NCBI GenBank assembly: GCA_964016885.1
Contig: OZ024743.1
Coordinates: forward strand, 9,052,001 to 9,116,000
Source: Eledone cirrhosa
Lineage: Eukaryota
Direction: 5' to 3'
Length of the DNA: 64,000 bases
The number at the start of each line of letters is the position of its first letter. The stretch's first letter is position 1. Below are positions 3,388 through 43,917 of this stretch, piece by piece. A model generated the notes under the pieces. That model did not search any database. It saw nothing but the letters and a program-made list of their open reading frames with translations, and was not told the DNA's origin. The position numbers were made by a program, and so were the translations under genes.

Positions 3388-4000
3388 TTTATCTAGTCCT
3401 TCGCTCAAGATTAATCTATAAGTTTAGATGTTTGCCTTCGTTTAAGTAAATATTACAGTAAGATTTTTAATATAAACAACTACAAAAAACAATTAATATT
3501 AAAACGAAAAAATTATCAATGATAAAAGAAGCGGATGCAACTTTTTTTTTTATAAAGTTATATTCCTGTTTCTTTAAAGAACATTTCATTTTTGTTCTAT
3601 TGTAGGCGAAATAATGCAATGGTTTAATAGGGAAGATATAACTTACGAATTATGTCTCTAACCGTGTAACGCTTTTTAAGTAGATAACTACAATTGAAAA
3701 TACTAAAGAAATGGAACCAACAATTCAATTTGAAAGTCGTCTAGTGACAGTGTATTACTGGTACTTTATTTTATCGACCCCGTAACGATGAAAGGCAAAA
3801 ATGCAAATGCTTAAAATTTAAATTGCCTTAATTCTATCGTCTGCTGTTTCATTAAAGGGAGATTATCGTCTGTATTTAATTCTATCGTCTACTGTTCCAC
3901 TAAACAGATATACCTCCACTATCGTCTCTATTTATACATTTTAACTTATAACTTATACACATTTGATTTGAAATATTTTATCTAGTCCCCCCTCTCAATA

Positions 4001-4055
4001 TTATGATGATTTCTTTCGAATGAAACAGTTCTAGTCCTGTAGAAACCATTTATAT
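4001..4055 (+). mobile_element. Fragment of a hammerhead-like TA-associated element (same family as 39733-39921 and 61684-61820)
   Basis: ATGATGATTTC-TTTC-GAATGAAACAGTTCTAGTCCTGTAGAA closely matches 39792-39832 and is followed by a TA run. Confidence 0.65.
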
Positions 4056-4737
4056 ATATAATTGAACTGAGTTAAAAATTCACAATATTTATAATTAAAT
4101 AAGCTCATATATATATGTGTGTATTTATCTGTTTATTGTATTATATATAATGTGTGTATATACAGGATGTCCCCCAAAAATATATACACACTTCAACAGC
4201 ATTCTAATAACTATTGCCTGTACAGGTAATCAAAGTGTCAATCGAATGTTAGTTTCGTGTTTTAACAGTACAAATTTACAATACACACATAAAACCAGTG
4301 TATATACATACATGAGTGTGTATACACATACATGAATGTGTATATACAATATATATGTATATATATATAGACACATATATTCACGGTGCAACGGTACATT
4401 AAAATATAGATGTGGGAGAGGGGGGGGGTGTATATATAGGGACGCTGGGGATAAAGGAGTGTAAAGCGTGTGTAATTGATATATTGAAGGAGAGGAGCGT
4501 GCAGCGATAGAGTAACAAATATATAGAGAGGGGGAGAGATGGTATTGAAGGGGAGGAGTGCAAAGCGAAAGAGTAAGAGATATATATAGAGACGGAACAG
4601 ATAGAGAGAAACAGGCGTAAGTAACAGTGGAAGAGATATAGAGAGAGGTACTCTGATTGGTTGAAAATTAGCCAATGACATACGATCACCACCACCACGG
4701 CTATCCCCGAAAAATTTTTTAAGAAGCTACGCATATA

Positions 4738-17292: not shown

Positions 17293-18215
17293 CACACACA
17301 TACATACATATATGCCTACATACACATATGATCACATACACACATACACACATACATACATATATGCCTACATACACATATGATTACATACACACATACA
17401 TACATATATGCCTACATACACATATGATCACATACACACATACATACATATATGCCTACATACACATATGATTACATACACACATACATACATATATGCC
17501 TACATATACATATGATCACATACACACATACATACATATATGCCTACATACACATATGATCACATACACACATACATACATATATGCCTACATACACATA
17601 TGATTACATACACACATACATACATATATGCCTACATATACATATGATCACATACACACATACATACATATATGCCTACATACATATGTGCCTACATACA
17701 CATGATCACATACACACATACATACGTGTATGCCTACATACACATATGATCACATACACACATACACACATATATACATATATGCCTACATACACATGAT
17801 CACATACACACATACATACGTGTATGCCTACATACACATGATCACATACACACATACACACATTCATACATATATGCCTACATACACATGATCACATACA
17901 CACATACATATATGCCTACATACACATATGATCTCATACACACATACACATATATATGCCTACATGCACATATGATCACATACACACATACACACATACA
18001 TACATATATGCCCACATACACATATGATCACATACACACATACACATATATATATGCCCACATACACATATGATCACATACACACATACACATATATATG
18101 CCCACATACACATATGATTACATACACACATACACATATATATGCCCACATACACATATGATCGCATACACACATACACATATATATGCCTACATACACA
18201 TATGATCGCATACAC
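17293..18215. repeat. ~44-bp minisatellite built from CATA/CACA microsatellite units
   Basis: Unit ATATGCCTACATACACATATGATCACATACACACATACATAC; GCCTAC recurs at 17410 and 17454 and throughout, about 20 units of ~40-50 bp. Confidence 0.92.
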
Positions 18216-18403
18216 ACAAAAATACCCCCCTCCCCACAAAAAAAAACAAAAAAAAACAAAGATAAACAAAACAAAGCAAAACAAAGAAACAAGGAAAGCA
18301 ACCAGATGCAAACACAGATGTGTATGTATGTATGTATGTATGTATGTATGTATGTATGTATGTATGTATGTATGTATGTATGTATGTATGTATGTATGTA
18401 TGT

Positions 18404-18955
18404 GTCAGGTCACCAGTTGGTGCTACTGGTAACATGTATCCCAGTACAACCTGTCCCATGGTCGGGTCGTTGACGACTAAACTGGCAACCCCACCAAGGT
18501 TTCTTGATGAGGAGGGTTACTTTGGACATCCTGCAGGACTAAAAACAAAACCTGTCAAAGGGCAAAGGAGCTCTTAAGAGTCAATGGCCATCCAATATCA
18601 CCGGGAGAGATGATCCCTTAGCCTTTGTCAAGGCAGAATTCTAGGAGAAGGAAAACTCTGATATAACACCTGCAACCCTGATGGTATCCAATGATGTTGA
18701 CTTGTTCTTCTTTTTGGTAAATATCATCTTGGTTAAGAGAGTGGGACTGGCTTTGTGCAGTGCCTTTGCTCACTATAAAAGGTTCACGGCACAGGCATTG
18801 CTTTATATCTGGAGATCTCTCTGCACTTTGTTTGTACCAGAGTTTTCAAGTCGCTGGCTGGACTAAAAAGTCACACTCGTTCAGCGCATCGGTAGGGGGT
18901 TCTCCTACATGGATATAAAGTAGTGGCCGTACTCGAAAACGAGTTGGCAGCCACC
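18404..18955 (+). mobile_element. Non-coding RTE-like retroelement (family R), copy 1, with an internal ~56-nt deletion
   Basis: Flanked on both sides by (TATG)n. Contains CTAGGAGAAGGAAAACTCTGA (RTE-type 5'UTR motif, from recall) and a 3' hairpin GCCGTACTCG-AAAA-CGAGTTGGC before a (ATGT)n tail. No long ORF. Near-identical to 19904-20458 and 21741-22348. Confidence 0.8.
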
Positions 18956-19014
18956 ATGTATGTATGTATGTATGTATGTATGTATGTATGTATGTATGTA
19001 TGTATGTATGTATG

Positions 19015-19423
19015 TTTTCTCTTTCTCTTAATTTCGAGTATATTTTTTTGACCGGCCACCTTCCTGGTGGCAAGGTTGTAAAAGAAAAGAAATTGTCATC
19101 CCTTGAATCGCAAAAATGTTTTGCAAATTGTGAAGGAGCCAGCTATCGCAGCCATTTGTAGACTATGAATTAGGGAGCTGCGCTTTTTGTCCGCAAATCC
19201 AAGTTCAGTCATACTTTGGTCCAAGCGGGTTGGTATATAACCCATAGCTCCAATAATGATGGGTATGAAGCTAAAGGTGTATCTTGGATACAGAATTTGT
19301 AAACTCCTCATCAATGGTCCGTAGATGTCCTCCTTCTCCTGTATTTTTCTGACAACGTTTACATCAAGTGGGCAGCTGATCTCCACAACAGAACACGTTT
19401 TCAATGTGTGGTCCCAAACTACA

Positions 19424-19425
<2 letters not shown>
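19015..19425 (-). mobile_element. 5'-truncated REL-endonuclease non-LTR retrotransposon, family A, inserted in (CATA)n
   Basis: Translates [24 protein letters not shown]...EKEDIYGPL...PIIIGAMG...KTFLRFKG* (stop 19096-19098), the C-terminal REL domain aligning with the 43.5-kb element. 3'UTR then (CATA)n; (CATA)n also at the 5' junction. Confidence 0.88.
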
Positions 19426-19454
<29 letters not shown>

Positions 19455-19509
19455 TGTATGTATGTATGTATGTATGTATGTATGTATGTATGTATGTATG
19501 TATGTATGT

Positions 19510-19539
19510 GTTACCAGTAGCACCAACTGGTGACCTGAC
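19510..19539 (-). mobile_element. Inverted 5' end (~30 nt) of family R copy 2
   Basis: GTTACCAGTAGCACCAACTGGTGACCTGAC is the reverse complement of the first 30 nt of copies 1 and 3. Confidence 0.85.
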
Positions 19540-19656
19540 ATAATACATATATATATATATATACATATACACACATATACATATAAATATACATATACAT
19601 ATATATATATATATATACATATATACATATATATATATATACATATATATATATAC

Positions 19657-19705
<49 letters not shown>

Positions 19706-19706
19706 C

Positions 19707-19739
<33 letters not shown>

Positions 19740-19780
19740 CATAGATATATAATTATACATATACATATATATATATATAT

Positions 19781-19851
<71 letters not shown>

Positions 19852-19903
19852 CATAGATATATAATTATACATATACATATATATATATATATATACATAT
19901 ATG

Positions 19904-20458
19904 CATGGTCGGGTCGTTGGCGACTAAACTGGCAACCCCACCAAGGTTTCTTGGTGAGGAGGGTGACTTTGGACATCCTGCAGGACTAAAAACAAAACCT
20001 GCCAAAGGGCAAAGGAGTTCTTAAGAGTCAATGGCCATCCAAAATCACCGGGAGAGATGACCCCTTAGTCTTTGTCAAGGCAGAATTCTAGGAGAAGGAA
20101 AATTATGATATAACACCTGCAACCCTGATGGTATCCAATGATGTTGACTTGTTCTTCTTTTTGGTAAATATCATCTTGGTTAAGAGAGTGGGACTGGCTT
20201 TGTGCAGTGCCTTTGCTCACCATAAAAGCTTCACGGCACAGGAATTGCTTTATATCTGGAGATCTCTCTGCACTTGTCGTCACATGGTTCCACGGGCCTA
20301 GTACTATGAGTCAAGAATTGTCACAAGTGTAGTGTTTGTACCAGAGTTTTCAAGTCGCTGGCTGGACTAAAAAGTCACACTCGTTCAGCGCATCGGTAGG
20401 GGTTCTCCTACATGGATATAAAGTAGTGGCCGTACTCTAAAACGAGATGGCAGCCACC
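19904..20458 (+). mobile_element. Family R copy 2 (body)
   Basis: Resumes at CATGGTCGGGTCGTTGGCGAC, ends GCAGCCACC then (ATGT)n. Confidence 0.85.
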
Positions 20459-20550
20459 ATGTATGTATGTATGTATGTATGTATGTATGTATGTATGTAT
20501 GTATGTATGTATGTATGTATGTATGTATGTATGTATGTATGTATGTATGT

Positions 20551-20652
20551 GTTCTGGTTTTATAATTTCACAAAGTTTTACCAATAGAGAGTCGGTTTCT
20601 AACATAGACACAAGACTCTCTCATTGGAATTTAAACATCAACTAGGTAGATT
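20551..20652 (-). mobile_element. 3' end of REL family B, copy a
   Basis: Matches 21103-21210 (TTCTGGTTTTATAATTTCACAAA...CATCAACTAGGTAGA); abuts (TATG)n. Confidence 0.8.
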
Positions 20653-20872
20653 ATATATGTATGTGTGTATGTATGTGCATATGTGTATGTATGTGTGTAT
20701 GTATGTGTGTATGTATGTATGTATATATGTATGTGCGTATGTATGTATGTATGTATGTATATATGTATGTGTATGTATGTGTATGTATGTGTGTATGTAT
20801 GTATGTATATTTGTATGTATGTGTATATGTATGTATGTGTGTATGTATGTATGTGTGTATGTATGTATGTAT

Positions 20873-21088
20873 GTTCTGGTTTTATTTCTTTTACGACTAG
20901 AGAGAGAACCGGTTTCTAACATAGAACCAAGAATCTTTCACTGGACTCTAGACAACATCAACTAGGTAAATATATATGTATGTCTCTATGTGATTGAGTG
21001 TGTTTACAAACATGGATATTAATGCATGTGTGGATCTATAATGTACATGTGCATATGTTTCTGTATTCATACGTGTTTATATGCAGTT
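20873..21088 (-). mobile_element. 3'UTR of REL family B, diverged copy b
   Basis: Homologous to 21103-21330 up to ATGCAGTT, i.e. almost to the stop codon; TATG-type repeats on both sides. Confidence 0.7.
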
Positions 21089-21102
21089 GTATGTATGTAT
21101 GT

Positions 21103-21656
21103 TTTTCTGGTTTTATAATTTCACAAATTTTTTCCCACTAGAAAGAGAGCCGGTTTCTAACATAGACACAAGACTCTCTCATTGGAATTTACACAACATC
21201 AACTAGGTAGATTATGTATGTCTGCATGCATATGTAGATATGGATGTTATTGTATGTGTGGATGTGGATGTTTTGAGTTGTATGTGTGCATGTGTATATG
21301 CTTTGTATCTGTACATGTGTATATGCAGTTATTAGATGCAAAATTTTTGGAATGTTTTACATATTTTTACTGTTCCATTAATGGATTGTACTTGTAATTT
21401 CCTAACTAGTTGTGTTCTTTCTGTTCCCGTGAAGCCTAACTTCTCAAGATTTGCATTGAGGCAGTTACTAACATATCCCAGTGCCCCAATAACCACAGGC
21501 ATAAATCTGAAGGTGTAATAAGGGTGGAGTATCTGCAGATTTCTCATCAGTTCTGCATAAATATTCTCCTTTTCGCTAATCTTTGATATTATATTGGCAT
21601 CTGCTGGGCAGCTAATTTCCACTACTGTGCATGCTTTCTTCTCCCTGTCCCATATC

Positions 21657-21658
<2 letters not shown>
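21103..21658 (-). mobile_element. 5'-truncated REL non-LTR retrotransposon, family B, copy c, inserted in (CATA)n
   Basis: MIWDREKKACTVVEISCPADANI...EKENIYAEL...PVVIGALG...KTFQKFCI* (stop 21332-21334), then a 3'UTR and CATAC repeats. Confidence 0.88.
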
Positions 21659-21687
<29 letters not shown>

Positions 21688-21740
21688 TGTATGTATGTAT
21701 GTATGTATGTATGTATGTATGTATGTATGTATGTATGTAT

Positions 21741-22348
21741 GTCAGGTCACCAGTTGGTGCTACTGGTAACATGTATTCCAGTACAACCTGTCCCATGGTC
21801 GGGTCGTTGGCGACTAAACTGGCAACCCCACCAAGGTTTCTTGGTGAGGAGGGTAACTTTGGACATCCTGCAGGACCAAAAACAAAACCTCTCAAAAGGC
21901 AAAGGAGCTCTTAAGAGTCAATGGCCATCCAAAATCACCGGGAGAGATGACCGCTTAGCCTTTTTCAAGGCAGAATTCTAGGAGAAGGAAAACTCTGATA
22001 TAACACCTGCAACCCTGATGGTATCCAATGATGTTGACTTGTTCTTCTTTTTGGTAAATATCATCTTGGTTAAGAGAGTGGGACTGGCTTTGTGCAGTGC
22101 CTTTGATCACTATAAAAGCTTCACGGCACAGGCATTGCTTTATATCTGGAGATCTCTCTGCACTTGTCGTCACATGGTACCATGGGCCCAGCACTATGTG
22201 TCAATAATTGTCACAAATGTAGTGTTTGTACCAGAGTTTTCAAGTCGCTGGCTGGACTAAAAAGTCACACTCGTTCAGCGCATCGGTAGGGGTTCTCCTA
22301 CATGGATATAAAGTAGTGGCCGTACTCGAAAACGAGTTGGCAGCCACC
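21741..22348 (+). mobile_element. Family R copy 3 (apparently full length, 608 bp)
   Basis: Starts GTCAGGTCACCAG at the same nucleotide as copy 1; (TATG)n on both sides. Confidence 0.88.
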
Positions 22349-22458
22349 ATGTATGTATGTACGTATGTATGTATATATGTATGTAAAGATATCCGTCTCA
22401 ATGACTTAGTATGTCTTTCGATTTCTTTGTTATATATTTCGACGTTGAATATAATATA

Positions 22459-22747
22459 CAGGGGCCTCATTTGCCTTAAAAATGTAAGGGGGACAAACCA
22501 ATATTTGTTGATTCTTAAAGGAACATGTTAGTATTGCTTATGGTGCATTTCCTGGACCCTATCACATAATGTTACGCTAAGTACATTTTATATATTCAAA
22601 TGAAGTTCAGATATAAAAAAATAAGCTTATAAAGAATTTATTATATCAAATAAACACAAAATAAAATATAGATGTTTAAAAAAGTGGGTGGCTGGGGTGG
22701 GGGGTGGGGGACTTGTTCCCTGGTAACCCCTTGAAACAAGGCCCTTG
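22459..22747 (+). mobile_element. hAT-type MITE family M8, copy 1
   Basis: Ends CAGGGGCCTCATTT / AAACAAGGCCCTTG; perfect 8-bp TSD ATAATATA (22451-22458 / 22748-22755). Confidence 0.88.
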
Positions 22748-34615: not shown

Positions 34616-34714
34616 TTAGTTAAGCAAAACAAGACCACAAATTTCATAAGGAAGACATTATTAAAAGATTAAAAGATTGTCAACATAGTTTTAGTTTAAT
34701 GTAAGGAATGTAGA

Positions 34715-34760
<46 letters not shown>

Positions 34761-34763
<3 letters not shown>

Positions 34764-35570
34764 TGAATTTAGAGATCCACAGACATGGAACTGGTTGAGA
34801 AGAGGAGACCTCAAAAAGGCTACAGAAGGAATGCTAATGGCTGCGCAGGAGCAGGCCCTCAAAACGAAGTGGTTGAAGCACCATATCTACAAGGAGGAGG
34901 CTAGCCCACTGTGCAGGATCTGTGGAGAGAGAGAGGAGACTGTGGCTCACATTGTGTCCGAGTGTAAACACCTAGCCCAGACCCACTATAAGGGCTGGAG
35001 ACACGATGTGATGGGCAGGGTGATCCACTGGCACCTGTGCAAAGTAAACAATCTACCACATTCTGAGAAATGGTATGAGCATAGGCCAGAGGCGGTGATA
35101 GAGAACAGTCAGGTGAAGGTGCTGTGGGATTTTAGGATACAGACGGACAAAAAACTGGAACACAATAGACCTGACCTGGTGGTTGTGGACAAAGAAAAAA
35201 GATCGTGCCTGATTGTGGATGTGGCCTGCCCGTTCGACACGAGAGTGCAAGAGAAGGAGAGGGAGAAAATTAACCGATACCAGGACCTAAAGTGGGAGGT
35301 GAAAAGGATTTGGAACTGCCATGAAGTCAAAGTGATCCCGATTGTCATAGGCGCACTGGGGACTATCTCCAAAGGTTTCCAGGGATGGTTAAAGAAAATC
35401 GGCCCCTTCACGCTTTTTGGAACGCTTCAAAAGGCATGCTTGCTTGGAACGGCAAGAACCCTCCGATACGTCCTGAATATCTGAGGCTGCAGGTAGTGGC
35501 TTGATATTCAATCCAACGGACTTTCCAGTTAACCAACATCAATGACTGAGATTCAAGGAATAACAATAAC

Positions 35571-35575
<5 letters not shown>
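34761..35575 (+). mobile_element. Dong/R4-like retrotransposon, 5'-truncated copy 2, in (TAA)n
   Basis: Matches 43063-43875 with only two amino-acid differences in the supplied translations (VIENS vs VMENS, DKKLE vs DKQLE). (TAA)n on both sides. CCHC and REL motifs intact. Confidence 0.95.
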
Positions 35576-35619
<44 letters not shown>

Positions 35620-35622
<3 letters not shown>

Positions 35623-36835: not shown

Positions 36836-38859
36836 TATATATATATATATTTCTGCAAACACTATGCACATTTCAGTGGTCAGGTTGCGTATGAACCCGG
36901 TGACCCCATCAGGCGTAAATTGCGGAATAGTTGGATACCAACGGAATGATGGTAAACTTTAAGGCAACAAGCAAAGAAAAGACAGAGAGGAAAAAGTTTG
37001 TGTATATGTTTTTGACCCAGAGACGGATGAAGTAGCATGCTGTCACCTTGCCTCCTCCGTCTCTGAGTTGAGGGTGTAAGGTAGTAGCAGGAACAGAGTT
37101 AAATACTTCAATTAAAATAGAAGAGAGGGTTTCACTATATTCCTTTAATTTTACAAAATTACATAATACGTTTTTCTCTGGTCAGCTTACGTCATCAAAC
37201 CACGACGCAAGACAATCGGTGACATTATCAGATGTAATGAACATTAAAGGTTTTAAAGATTTAGACCAGTAATCCTACCAGGTTACAGGTCGTCCGTTGT
37301 AATCCATTGTTTACATTTTGCTGAAATCATTAGGGTCTGATAACGTAAGCCGACCATAGAAATACGTATTAGGTAATTTACATTAAAGGAATATATTGGA
37401 AGCTGGCCTTCTATTTTTATTGAAATGTACACACACACACACACATACACACTCAAACACACACACACATATATATATATGTTATTTTAATGATTTCCAT
37501 GTTTCGACTAGTACTTATTTTGTCAATCTGATTTTGTCAATCTCTGAATACAAACGATCTTTTCTAAAGAAAGCGATAATGAGTGATAGAGAAAGAATCT
37601 ACACCAGTACGTGACTGGTACTTCATTTATCGACTTTCAAAGGATGAAAGTTGCTCTCGATGGAATTTAAACTTGCAGCATGCTGAGCCAGACGTAATAA
37701 AATAGTGAAGCATGTTTAATCCTACGCCTAAATGATGCTGACAATTGGCATATATACATACATACACACACACACACATACTCTCGCTGTTCCCTTTATT
37801 TACATGTCCCAACGACTTTCTTTAGCCGTTGCTCGCACCAACCGGAGGTATATGGTCTTTAAAGCGAAGAAATACCGATGATGGTTGGAAGATCACTGAT
37901 GAAGGACCACTTTATTCATATATATATGCATGCATATATGTGCATACTAGAGATATGTTAAGCCAAATCTTTCAAGATATTTGTAGGTACTTTTCAATGT
38001 GGTATATAGTTTATCGACCCAAAACCTATAAGTTGCTTTGTGCTCTTGAAGAAAACACTTCATTTCACATAGCTCCTTTCAACTCATCTGAAAATGATTA
38101 TCTATGGGTTAAATCGGAGATGAACTGGCGTTCAGTGCAACGGAGGGGGGCAGCATGTGCCCTCAGTCGCTTAACGTCATTGAAACCTAGATAATCTCCA
38201 GTCTGGTTAACCTCAGGGCTTCGGATAGACTTTATCTCTTTATGTATTGTGTACCCCAACCGCAAAAAAAAAAGAAAAAAACCAAAATAAAAACAAAAAA
38301 CTTTCACATACAAGAACACAAACACAGACACAGACTCGCACGCACACACATCACATATATGGGCATATAATTTGCTCTTTCTTTCTTTCATATGAGATAG
38401 CAATCACGTGACATCCATAGGCGCTGTAACCAGCTCACGGTAGTGGGATTCAGATGAGTGAGGTCTCAGGTGGTCGATATCCGGCCCCCTGTGTGTATTC
38501 TGCAGTCTACTCTGGTGAGCCAAACAGGCAAGATTGGCAGGCTTATCATAGGGCGTTGGCACACCCACCCTAGGTACTAGCTCCATAACTTTGTCTACAG
38601 TACTACCCAGTATGCCTCCCCGGTGTACAATAAGTTGGTGTGACAGTTGATTAGCTTTCTATATAATGGGAATTTGGCAACCGTTGTTGCTGTATTTGTG
38701 AGATATACAATCAAATAAATTATTTTGATCCATACATATATGATAGCTGACCCTCGTTATCGAGTATGGCCATTGCAATATAACATTATTAATAATTCTC
38801 AATTAATTCTATCGTGCAATGCTTGTGCCTGAATATTTTTTTTAAGTGAGGAAAGACTG

Positions 38860-39320
38860 TGCACTGAGCCAATCCCACTCTCTGGGCGACAGTAGCTATA
38901 ACCCGAAAAGAAGAAAAGATCAACATCATCGCTTACTGAGCCTCAGGTTTTATGTCGGAGTTATCCCAGTTTTCTGAGTTGCCTTCTCCTAGTAGATTGC
39001 CCTGACAAAGGCTAGGAATCTTTCACTCCCAGTTGTTTAACTGCGCGATCAGGTATCCAGCCCGACTATTTCTATGTCCCCGCCATATACATACACATGG
39101 ATACACGTATATACATATATACATACATACACATGCATACATGTATATACATATGTACAGATTTTTGGATGGCCGTTGACTTTTATGAGTTCTTCCGCCC
39201 TTTGTAAGTTTTTGTTTTTTGTCCTGCAGGATGTCCAAATTCACCCTCCTCACCAAGTAAACTTGGTGGGGTTGCCGGTTTAGTCACCGACGACCTGGGG
39301 TACATGTTACCAGTAGCACT
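38860..39320 (-). mobile_element. Diverged relative of family R (RTE-like), interrupted by a microsatellite
   Basis: Reverse complement gives GTGCTACTGGTAACATGTA...GGCAACCCCACCAAG-TTTA-CTTGGTGAGGAGGGTG...CTAGGAGAAGG...AGAGAGTGGGATTGGC. Confidence 0.75.
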
Positions 39321-40613: not shown

Positions 40614-40870
40614 TTATCTCTTTCTCTTAATTTCGAGTATATTTTTTTGACCGGCCACCTTCCTGGTGGCAAGGTTGTAAAAGAAAAGAAATTGTCATCC
40701 CTTGAATCGCAAGAATGTTTTGCAAATGTTGAAGGTGCCAGCTATCGCAGCCATTTGTAGACTATGAATTAGGGAGCTGCGGTCTTTGTCCACAAATCCA
40801 AGTTCAGTCATACTTTGGTCCAAGCGGGTTGGTATATAACCCGTAGCACCAATAATGATGGTATGAAGCT
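40614..40870 (-). mobile_element. REL family A, second 5'-truncated copy in (CATA)n
   Basis: Near-identical to 19015-19272; (TATG)n immediately on both sides. Confidence 0.9.
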
Positions 40871-41318
40871 ATGTATGTATGTATGTATGTATGTATGTAT
40901 GTATGTATGTATGTATGTATGTATGTATGTATGTATGTATGTATGTATGTAGGTATGTATGCATGTGTGTACGTATGTGTGTAGGTATGTATCTGTGTGT
41001 ATATGTCTGTCTGTATGTATGTATGTCTATGTATGTAGGTATGTGTGTATGTATGTGTGTGTGTACGTATGTGTGTAGGTATGTATCTGTGTGTGATGTA
41101 TGTCTATATGTATGTGTGTGTGTGTGCACGAATGTGTGTATATGTCGGTGTGTATTTATGTGCGTATGTAGTGTATATATGTATGTGTATGTATGTATGT
41201 GTGTATGTATGCCTGTATGTAATATATGTGGGTATGTATTATATCCTCGTACTGACCAATACTATATGTGTGAAATTTGATTGACAGGAGCTATGCGGAA
41301 GCCCGCCGTATATATATA

Positions 41319-41820: not shown

Positions 41821-41822
<2 letters not shown>

Positions 41823-43872
41823 TTACCAACTATAGACCTATCACATGTCTGCCCGTAATGTGGAAACTGTTGACGAGCATTGTGTCTGAGGAAATCTACC
41901 ATCACCTCCACACAAACAACTTGTTGCCGGACGAACAGAAAGGATGCCGAAAGAAGTCACGTGGTACAAAGGACCAGTTGCTTATTGATAAGATGGTAAT
42001 GGGGAATTGCAGGAGGAGACACACTGATCTTGCCATGGGATGGATAGACTACAGAAAGGCATTTGACATGGTGCCTCATTCCTGGATCACCAAAAGCCTG
42101 GAGATCTTCAGGGTGGCAGATAACATCAGACAGTTGCTGGGCAGGAGTATGGGGTCCTGGGAGACAGAGTTGACATCAACTGGAGTATCCTTGGGAAGCG
42201 TGAAGATCAAGAGAGGTATCTTCCAGGGAGATAGCCTGTCCCCTCTGTTGTTTGTCCTTGCCCTGATGCCCTTGACCATTATGCTGCGAAAAGTGAGAGC
42301 AGGATACAAGTTGGGAAGGGGAGAGCTTACCATCAATCACCTCCTCTTCATGGACGATCTTAAGCTCTTCGGGAAAAGTGAGAAGGAGTTGGATGTGCTT
42401 GTTGACACTGTCCGTATTTTCAGCAGTGATATATGTATGCAGTTTGGTATTGGTAAATGTGGAGTCATTGTGATGAGGAGGGGTAGGTTGAGCAGAAGTA
42501 ACGGGATCCAGATACCAACAGGTGAGATGATAAAGGAAATTGACTCTGAGGAAGGATACAAGTATTTGGGCGTTCTGGAGGCTGATGGCATAAAGAACAA
42601 AAAAATGAAGGAATTGTTAAGAACTGAATACATTCGGAGAGTAAGGAGCGTATTGAAGTCACATCTGAACAGCAGAAATGCCATAAGCGCAGTAAATTCC
42701 CGAGCTGTGTCTATTATTAGGTACAGTGCGGGAATCCTGAGATGGAATGTTGCTGAACAAAAAGAAATGGATAGGAAGACTAGGAAGCTATTGACTATCT
42801 ACAACATGTTCCACAAGAGGAGTGATGTCGATAGACTCTACCTAAGGAGATCTGAGGGTGGAAGAGGTCTTATCAGCATAGAGGACTGTGTTCAGATGGA
42901 GAAAAACAACCTATACAAATACGTGACCTATAGTAAGGAGCCAATGCTCAGAGCTGTACTGAAGGAGGGGACAGTAGGCCAGGGGATACCCAAGGAGGAA
43001 ATAACATCAAGGAGGAAGAGCAGCCTTAAGGGAAAATCCCTTCATAGTACCTTCTTTGAGAAAACTGAATTTAGAGATCCACAGACATGGAACTGGTTGA
43101 GAAGAGGAGACCTCAAAAAGGCTACAGAAGGAATGCTAATGGCTGCGCAGGAGCAGGCCCTCAAAACGAAGTGGTTGAAGCACCATATCTACAAGGAGGA
43201 GGCTAGCCCACTGTGCAGGATCTGTGGAGAGAGAGAGGAGACTGTGGCTCACATTGTGTCCGAGTGTAAACACCTAGCCCAGACCCACTATAAGGGCTGG
43301 AGACACGATGTGATGGGCAGGGTGATCCACTGGCACCTGTGCAAAGTAAACAATCTACCACATTCTGAGAAATGGTATGAGCATAGGCCAGAGGCGGTGA
43401 TGGAGAACAGTCAGGTGAAGGTGCTGTGGGATTTTAGGATACAGACGGACAAACAACTGGAACACAATAGACCTGACCTGGTGGTTGTGGACAAAGAAAA
43501 AAGATCGTGCCTGATTGTGGATGTGGCCTGCCCGTTCGACACGAGAGTGCAAGAGAAGGAGAGGGAGAAAATTAACCGATACCAGGACCTAAAGTGGGAG
43601 GTGAAAAGGATTTGGAACTGCCATGAAGTCAAAGTGATCCCGATTGTCATAGGCGCACTGGGGACTATCTCCAAAGGTTTCCAGGGATGGTTAAAGAAAA
43701 TCGGCCCCTTCACGCTTTTTGGAACGCTTCAAAAGGCATGCTTGCTTGGAACGGCAAGAACCCTCCGATACGTCCTGAATATCTGAGGCTGCAGGTAGTG
43801 GCTTGATATTCAATCCAACGGACTTTCCAGTTAACCAACATCAATGACTGAGATTCAAGGAATAACAATAAC

Positions 43873-43875
<3 letters not shown>
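41821..43875 (+). mobile_element. R4/Dong-clade non-LTR retrotransposon, 5'-truncated, inserted in (TAA)n
   Basis: (TAA)n at 41767-41820 and 43861-43914; short 3'UTR. Dong elements of the R4 clade are established (TAA)n-targeting REL retrotransposons. Confidence 0.93.
41822..43786 (+). CDS. Reverse transcriptase + CCHC zinc knuckle + restriction-like endonuclease (N-terminally truncated)
   Basis: The frame extends upstream of the ATG at 41858 as [14 protein letters not shown] motifs [51 protein letters not shown]; [18 protein letters not shown]; RHD; [16 protein letters not shown]. No stops. Confidence 0.95.

Positions 43876-43917
<42 letters not shown>

What the first reader, a model, noticed from the sequence alone, without database searches (positions are those of the whole stretch)
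18320..22385. 4-kb retroelement pile-up inside a (TATG)n microsatellite with family-specific polarity
Seen: seven inserts alternate with (TATG)n spacers. Three copies of non-coding family R have bodies on + with (ATGT)n tails, and four REL-retrotransposon 3' ends (families A and B) are all on - with (CATA)n tails. Inference: family R extends TATG tracts through its tail while REL elements cut the same repeat from the opposite strand, giving a self-perpetuating landing pad in which each insertion regenerates the target.
Basis: partly seen in the sequence, partly recalled or inferred. Interest (0 to 1): 0.72.

Follow-up and report, generated by a model that had tools for sequence, protein, structure and literature searches.

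The report
Two retrotransposon clades share TATG microsatellites
Seven independent copies of two unrelated kinds of jumping gene are stacked in one TATG repeat, each kind facing its own way here and across the genome, likely because both insert into the pre-existing repeat from opposite strands rather than because one builds the repeat with its tail, a habit not found described in the papers searched for the RTE-type kind.

Summary
The pile-up is real: seven inserts, three of family R on + and four REL 3' ends on -. It is no tandem duplication (R1-R3 share no rare variant).

R is a 611-nt internal-deletion derivative (nt 1-435 plus last 180) of a 4.07-kb RTE retrotransposon (APE, RT, C2H2). 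A and B are RT + CCHC + RLE elements, R4/Dong-like.

Polarity holds genome-wide: 22,474 of 27,281 R/RTE ends run into AT(RT)3; 74-78% of A and B ends run into ACATACA.

The tail idea fails. Only 32% of R ends have ATGTATGT, the 3' flank copies the host's 5' flank (Fisher p=1.4e-5), and five readable target duplications start right at the element end. The repeat is a target, renewed by splitting and duplication.

Stacks are common: 20 of 42 REL sites against 1 of 61 control tracts. Cut sites and insertion order are inferred; no empty allele was seen. The scan found this system before on other DNA of this genome (e1-9884031, e1-9551269, e1-9815366).

The parts
18321..18403 (+). (TATG)21 tract, left edge of the stack
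18403..18955 (+). R1: bipartite non-autonomous RTE copy (RTE nt 3-428 + 3950-4075), with a further 57-nt deletion over the junction
18956..19015 (+). (ATGT)15 spacer, tail-to-tail between R1 and A1
19016..19427 (-). A1: 5'-truncated REL element of family A (nt 3797-4204 of 4204): RLE C-terminus + 3' UTR
   Evidence: 98.5% to nearest genomic copies
19425..19509 (+). (TATG)21 spacer
19509..19542 (-). inverted first 34 nt of R (likely 5' inversion belonging to R2)
19543..19902 (-). 360-nt TA-rich tract whose TG polarity fits the inverted piece; likely inverted with it
   Evidence: reading is inference
19904..20458 (+). R2 body, R nt 57-611
20459..20550 (+). (ATGT)23 spacer, tail-to-tail between R2 and B0
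20551..20765 (-). B0: 3' UTR of REL family B, running into B's internal degenerate CATA repeat (degenerate tract continues to 20874)
20875..21088 (-). B1: whole 3' UTR of an older B relative (74%)
21088..21102 (+). short TGTA spacer (3.8 units)
21103..21659 (-). B2: 5'-truncated REL element of family B (nt 3571-4122 of 4122): RLE C-terminus + 3' UTR
21658..21742 (+). (TATG)21 spacer, head-to-head between B2 and R3
21738..22348 (+). R3: full-length 611-nt bipartite non-autonomous RTE
22349..22385 (+). (ATGT)9 degenerate tract, right edge

Best explanation
The locus is a stack of seven independent retrotransposon insertions in one TATG/TA microsatellite, where an RTE-type family (R, a shortened form of a 4.07-kb RTE element, likely copied by it) always reads along the TATG strand and two R4/Dong-like families (A, B) always read along the CATA strand, likely because their enzymes start target-primed reverse transcription from nicks on opposite strands of the pre-existing repeat. 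Shown: element anatomy, opposite polarity, repeat on both sides, 9-31 nt target duplications for R, about 2 nt microhomology at 5' junctions. Inferred: the RTE endonuclease nicks a TpA step on the CATA strand, and the RNA's 3' end (AU, possibly AUGU) pairs with the primer. That pairing is perfect on ACAT, wobbled on ATAT and impossible on ATGT, which would explain both the (TA)n/(TATG)n range and the polarity. The REL elements likely recognise the repeat through an N-terminal Myb-like domain and nick the TATG strand. Each insertion splits the tract into two and duplicates some of it, so usable target remains on both sides and stacks grow without any tail.
For: R/RTE ends: 22,474 of 27,281 followed by AT(RT)3 against 2.4% of positions in 200 kb of evenly spaced DNA. 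A: 1,698 of 2,296 and B: 2,467 of 3,148 forward-strand ends followed by ACATACA against 0.56%. Repeat also on the 5' side in the same polarity: 47 of 49 R/RTE copies with a full 5' end, 32 of 40 A, 25 of 37 B. 75 of 75 full-length R have a 3' flank starting AT and none ACATACAT, although that word is as common as ATGTATGT in the baseline. 5' pure TA gave 3' ATATATAT 8 and ATGTATGT 0; 5' pure TATG gave 2 and 18 (Fisher 1.4e-5). Interruption markers are shared across the insertion in 14 of 55 R/RTE copies against an 11% cross-pair rate (p=0.003). In 60 position-ordered REL ends, 35 had a next element across pure repeat, 21 RTE-type opposite and 14 REL same strand, none breaking the rule. Microhomology means 1.9-2.1 nt against 0.4 expected. 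Literature: 3' RNA-target pairing is proposed for RTE (PMC6007223, section 18); R4/Dong insert into microsatellites and carry a Myb-like domain (PMC7998251 passages).
Against: No empty (pre-insertion) allele was seen: reads were uninformative. Target duplications are readable in only 5 of 75 R copies. The marker test was not significant for the REL families (A 5 of 20, p=0.19; B 3 of 17, p=0.48), so part of their (CATA)n could be added during insertion. 19 of 50 5'-truncated R/RTE, 7 of 38 A and 12 of 35 B copies have no repeat on the 5' side by my classifier. ATGTATAT is 3.3-fold over-represented after R, which leaves room for a one-unit ATGT tail. Of 30 position-ordered R ends, 2 of the 4 with a neighbour had an RTE-type neighbour on the opposite strand. 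The baseline is only 200 kb.
Confidence: 0.72

Rival explanations
1. One reading: R (and RTE) seed or extend TATG tracts with an (ATGT)n tail, and REL elements then land in these tails.
For: RTE tails are known to create microsatellites (PMC2887409, abstract and Discussion). ATGTATGT is about 18-fold enriched after R ends relative to its share of such 8-mers. 13 of 42 independent REL sites have an RTE-type 3' end next across the repeat, against 1 of 61 control tracts. Two of the three tracts of 10 or more units in 200 kb lie next to these families or relatives.
Against: Only 32% of ends carry ATGTATGT. The 3' flank tracks the 5' flank, and 5 of 5 readable duplications start at the element end, whereas the published test for a tail is repeat lying between the duplications. 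The repeat is on both sides, also in 5'-truncated copies. 22 of 42 REL sites have no such neighbour.
Confidence: 0.12
2. The RTE endonuclease is not sequence-specific beyond a TpA preference; microsatellites are used because they are TpA-rich and fragile, and polarity comes only from RNA-primer pairing or from survival of insertions in neutral repeat DNA.
For: Bov-B and related RTE retroposons cut at TA dinucleotides (PMC13295347 passages; PMC6007223). 30 of the first 100 listed R ends run into ATATATAT. This differs from the best explanation only in how much specificity sits in the enzyme.
Against: PMC13295347 (passage) says Bov-B copies are rarely flanked by targets resembling their 3' repeat, whereas here 82% of ends run into alternating repeat. 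TATG is preferred about 47-fold over TA relative to abundance (17.9 against 0.38). Survival bias cannot produce strand polarity.
Confidence: 0.3
3. The array arose by local tandem duplication or unequal crossing-over of an R-REL unit.
For: R copies recur three times and B copies three times within 4 kb.
Against: R1-R3 differ at 12-14 of 372 sites and at none of 19 variable sites do two of them share a rare base; each is closer to copies elsewhere (98.1-98.4%) than to the others (96-97%). Their 5' ends and internal deletions differ. B0, B1, B2 differ in length and age.
Confidence: 0.02

Closest known systems
Bipartite non-autonomous RTE elements (Bov-A, RTESINE1/2, WALLSI3, MAR4; PMC5786205 passages; PMC3747384 table)
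   Same: R is the 5' end plus the 3' end of an autonomous RTE joined by an internal deletion; 16,874 exact copies of the deletion junction.
   Different: Copies sit inside TA/TATG microsatellites in fixed polarity; the 3' piece keeps the last zinc-finger codons.
RTE clade, e.g. Bov-B, lepidopteran RTEs, octopus RTE-2_OV (PMC13295347, PMC2887409, PMC9115989)
   Same: Single ORF with APE + RT; C2H2 fingers at the C-terminus, a domain also reported for RTE-2_OV; insertion at TA steps with short duplications.
   Different: Published RTEs are described as not sequence-specific, with the microsatellite as a tail between the duplications. Here it is a bilateral target. Four RTE-2_OV primers match with 5-6 mismatches, so this is a different family.
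Dong / R4 clade (PMC7998251 passages; PMC3774820 passages)
   Same: Single ORF, RT, CCHC knuckle, C-terminal RLE, predicted N-terminal three-helix Myb/SANT-like domain without zinc fingers, insertion into a microsatellite in fixed orientation.
   Different: Target is (CATA)n, not (TAA)n. A is 49% identical to B but 30% to the (TAA)n-flanked REL element in this same window.
Target-specific APE elements of the R1 and Tx1 clades (PMC4640811 Introduction)
   Same: APE-encoding non-LTR elements bound to a repeated target.
   Different: The element here has RTE-type architecture, a clade that this source does not list among the target-specific groups.

Membership tests
Bipartite non-autonomous RTE | 5' part matches the 5' end of an autonomous RTE | tested here: met
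   R nt 1-434 match the 5' end of 6 near-full-length copies among 20 fetched, 93-98%
Bipartite non-autonomous RTE | 3' part matches the 3' end of the same element, middle deleted | tested here: met
   R nt 432-611 match the last 146-200 nt of all 20 long copies; the junction 21-mer is absent from the autonomous reference copy
Bipartite non-autonomous RTE | mobilised in trans by the partner | not testable with these tools
   inferred from shared ends and the same flanks
RTE clade (partner of R) | single ORF with AP endonuclease then RT | tested here: met
   L150: PF03372 E 4.5e-11 and PF00078 E 6e-28 in one 863-aa open stretch; zf-C2H2 in the C-terminal stretch
RTE clade (partner of R) | RT groups with named RTE elements in a phylogeny | not tested
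   no named RTE sequence was on hand; assignment rests on architecture, recalled RTE motifs and two RTE-2_OV primers falling on matching codons with 5 mismatches each
RTE clade (partner of R) | 3' microsatellite tail lying between the target duplications (PMC2887409) | tested here: not met
   5 of 5 readable duplications begin at the element end; flank follows host repeat. A common trait rather than a clade definition
R4/Dong clade (A, B) | RT followed by CCHC knuckle and C-terminal restriction-like endonuclease in one ORF | tested here: met
   PF00078 and PF13966; RHD, RPD, E and K motifs read in the translation (motif names recalled); best PDB match of the RT is R2 protein, E 1.6e-23
R4/Dong clade (A, B) | N-terminal Myb/SANT-like domain without zinc fingers | tested here: inconclusive
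   family A only: model pLDDT 80, three helices; top rows mostly Myb/SANT-type (Zeste Z 6.3, rmsd 2.5, 64 aligned; GT-1, ISWI, TRF), all under Z 8; Foldseek E>0.3; no Pfam or PDB sequence hit
R4/Dong clade (A, B) | RT phylogeny places it in R4 rather than HERO/NeSL | not tested
   no named references on hand; homologue search gave unnamed proteins
Dong proper | (TAA)n target | tested here: not met
   43 of 46 A and 38 of 45 B 3' junctions are CATA-type; not filed as Dong proper
HDV-like 5' ribozyme of RTE/R4 | Rfam match or covarying double pseudoknot at the 5' end of R | tested here: inconclusive
   no ribozyme family among 54 Rfam matches at E<=5; 1 of 32 predicted pairs with a compensatory change; fold z -0.91

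The most novel reading that the evidence does not exclude
An RTE-clade element has become a true microsatellite-targeting retrotransposon, a third target-specific AP-endonuclease lineage beside R1 and Tx1, with polarity set by RNA-primer pairing (ACAT exact, ATAT wobble, ATGT excluded); it shares (TATG)n with an R4/Dong branch retargeted from TAA to CATA, so that two unrelated enzymes partition the two strands of one repeat at tens of thousands of sites.
Probability: 0.42. Interest if true: 0.7.

Novelty: new variant of a known kind. Interest (0 to 1): 0.48.

Why it matters
RTE elements are described as not choosy about sequence, and target-specific AP-endonuclease elements are listed only for R1 and Tx1. 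A young family with more than 27,000 ends tied to TA/TATG repeats would let one test whether specificity can come from RNA-target pairing rather than from the enzyme. The CATA-using REL pair beside a TAA-using one in the same genome gives a natural comparison for how the Myb-like domain sets the target. In practice, TATG/CATA microsatellite markers in this animal are often element junctions and would not behave as single-copy loci. The locus itself is an ordinary example of a genome-wide pattern that this scan has already noted.

Tried and rejected
Polymorphism test: three runs of one sample and study hold the flank. Laying four runs on the right flank gave mostly hits to another repeat that starts near 22454 and no record crossing the junction. 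No conclusion.

A1 and B2 are both truncated at about the RPD motif. I considered a truncation hot spot and rejected it: starts of the position-ordered A copies are scattered.

5' ribozyme in R: not found.

Short-peptide search for the partner of R found nothing; the partner was found in the flank of locus L087 instead.

Pfam did not recognise the RLE fragments, and PDB gave no meaningful match for the C-terminal half of A. The protein Atlas gave no result. A genome-wide count of long TATG tracts was not obtained, so tract baselines rest on 200 kb.

Four short motifs of R were absent from 8 supplementary files of PMC9115989; files 5-8 were not searched and may hold its repeat sequences. The original Dong paper was not held. 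Repbase was not available, so a Repbase entry for these families or their targets cannot be excluded.

Literature searches found no report of a TATG-targeting RTE or a CATA-targeting R4/Dong element; only open-access papers were searched.

Rows dropped: the three loci that are the window itself were left out of identity and flank counts; copies whose flank ran off a fetched locus were left out; reverse-strand counts of the gapped patterns were not used because they double-count.
Full report
Observation. The region holds seven inserts separated by TATG tracts: R1(+), A1(-), R2(+), B0(-), B1(-), B2(-), R3(+). R2 carries its first 34 nt inverted plus a 360-nt TA/CATA tract, B0 runs into a degenerate repeat that family B carries inside its own 3' UTR, and B1 is an older relative. 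The genome is 3.0 Gb. That it is an octopod is my inference from the repeat landscape and from earlier scan notes; I did not test it.

Not a tandem duplication. Over 372 shared nt, R1, R2 and R3 differ at 12-14 sites. At none of 19 variable sites do two of them share a base that is rare among up to 116 other copies, and each has a closer copy elsewhere (98.1-98.4%).

What R is. A flank of locus L087 showed an RT-coding element ending in R's 3' end. Among 20 fetched long copies, 6 are near full length (about 4.02-4.08 kb) and begin with R's first 434 nt; all end with R's last part. One copy has an 863-aa open stretch with AP endonuclease and RT, followed by C2H2 fingers. R is therefore a bipartite internal-deletion derivative, a known kind (PMC5786205 passages). 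The deletion junction occurs 16,874 times exactly. Older families that I call S and T share the first 400 nt but have other 3' ends, also followed by ATGT/ATAT.

What A and B are. Full-length copies are 4.2 and 4.1 kb and start inside (CATA)n. They encode RT, a CCHC knuckle and a C-terminal restriction-like endonuclease; the RT is closest to R2 proteins in the PDB. The N-terminus of A folds into three helices that match Myb/SANT-type domains at modest Z, as reported for R4/Dong (PMC7998251 passages). Dong-R4 and RTE are listed among recently active LINEs of Octopus vulgaris (PMC13282606, first third of the text). No phylogeny with named elements was possible.

Polarity and target, genome-wide. 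Exact pattern counts: 27,281 R/RTE 3' ends, 22,474 followed by AT(RT)3 and 8,674 by ATGTATGT; A 1,698 of 2,296 and B 2,467 of 3,148 forward-strand ends followed by ACATACA. Baselines from 20 evenly spaced 10-kb stretches are 2.4%, 0.05% and 0.56%. In fetched loci, 94 of 104 R/RTE 3' flanks were TG- or TA-type and 2 CA-type; 43 of 46 A and 38 of 45 B flanks were CA-type and none TG-type. Position-ordered samples agree: R 27 of 30, A 28 of 30, B 28 of 30. The 5' side shows the same polarity in 47 of 49 R/RTE copies with a full 5' end, 31 of 50 truncated ones (one of them CA-type), 32 of 40 A and 25 of 37 B.

Tail or target. PMC2887409 (Discussion) gives the test: a tail lies between the target duplications, a target is there beforehand. 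In 75 full-length R copies all 3' flanks start with AT, G content of the two flanks correlates (rho 0.62), pure TA on the left goes with ATATATAT on the right (8 against 0) and pure TATG with ATGTATGT (18 against 2; p 1.4e-5), and five readable duplications of 9, 11, 12, 14 and 31 nt start at the element end. A multi-unit tail is thus not supported. A one-unit ATGT addition is not excluded (ATGTATAT enriched 3.3-fold). For A and B the shared-marker test was not significant, so their case rests on repeat on both sides and on 5' microhomology of about 2 nt against 0.4 expected.

Stacks. R ends cluster: 12 of 99 neighbours within 1 kb against 0.5 expected, all on the same strand; 10 of 19 A ends have an R end within 5 kb, 12 pairs opposite and none the same. 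Of 60 REL ends, 35 are followed across pure repeat by another element and none breaks the strand rule; with one site per cluster this is 20 of 42, against 1 of 61 control CATA tracts. R is mostly solitary by the same test (4 of 30, two of them opposite). Adjacency does not tell which element came first.

Mechanism. Shown: anatomy, polarity, bilateral repeat, duplications for R, microhomology. Inferred: target-primed reverse transcription from a nick on the CATA strand for RTE/R and on the TATG strand for A/B; pairing of the RNA 3' end with the primer as the source of R's polarity and of its 47-fold preference for TATG over TA (ratio), in line with the pairing model of PMC6007223 (section 18); renewal of target by splitting and duplication. 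By identity to the nearest copies, B1 is likely the oldest insert, then B0 and B2, with R1-R3 and A1 youngest. The R2 inversion fits twin priming on an RNA that still carried upstream repeat (twin priming recalled from L1 work); 4 of 94 5'-truncated R copies have an inverted 5' piece, the other three with no gap. A later inversion is also possible.

Comparison with what is known. Microsatellite targeting by R4/Dong is known for (TAA)n; a (TAA)n-flanked REL element in this window is only 30% identical to A. Target-specific APE elements are listed for R1 and Tx1 only (PMC4640811 Introduction). RTE sites are described as not sequence-specific, with a TA preference and rarely flanked by targets like their 3' repeat (PMC13295347 passages). 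Ten searches found no report of this TATG/CATA system; Repbase and subscription papers were not searchable. Papers seen only as passages: PMC9115989 (8 supplements searched), PMC12988792, PMC3774820, PMC3747384, PMC8303610, PMC8967140.

Verdict. All parts belong to known kinds; the new elements are the TATG/TA-bound RTE with its abundant short derivative and the CATA-bound R4/Dong-like pair. Earlier notes of this scan describe the same system elsewhere in this genome; they are unchecked notes and were not counted as support.

Noticed in passing
window 34714-35620 and 41822-43900 (+): Two copies of a third REL family (654-aa open stretch with RT and RLE motifs) next to (AAT)n runs: a canonical TAA-type Dong-like element, 30% identical to family A.
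   Followed up: partly
window 40617-40871 (-): A further 5'-truncated family A copy with (TATG)7 and (TATG)20 on its two sides, same polarity as in the stack.
   Followed up: yes
window 38750-39320 (-): Older relative of R (family S): shares R's first 400 nt at 69-85% but has another 3' end; families S and T recur next to A and B in many loci.
   Followed up: partly
window 17294-18225: 44-bp CATA-rich minisatellite of about 20 units just left of the stack.
   Followed up: no
L009:1430-2220 region, L069, L122: Flanks that switch polarity at a palindromic point; in L009 the two flanks of an R copy are inverted copies of each other over about 45 nt.
   Followed up: no
L110, L066, L073, L093 5' junctions: Stuttered 5' junctions: a short piece of the element, a few repeat units, then the element again, suggesting repeated template switches that could lengthen the repeat on the 5' side.
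   Followed up: no
window 21736-21877 and S/T relatives: The first 140 nt of R, S and T are conserved (89% mean column identity) with several possible stems, but no Rfam ribozyme match and little covariation.
   Followed up: partly
window 22454-22700: The right flank is itself a high-copy repeat of unknown kind (depth of tens of thousands).
   Followed up: no
L184, L147, L113: R copies with gap-free 5' inversions of the twin-priming type.
   Followed up: partly
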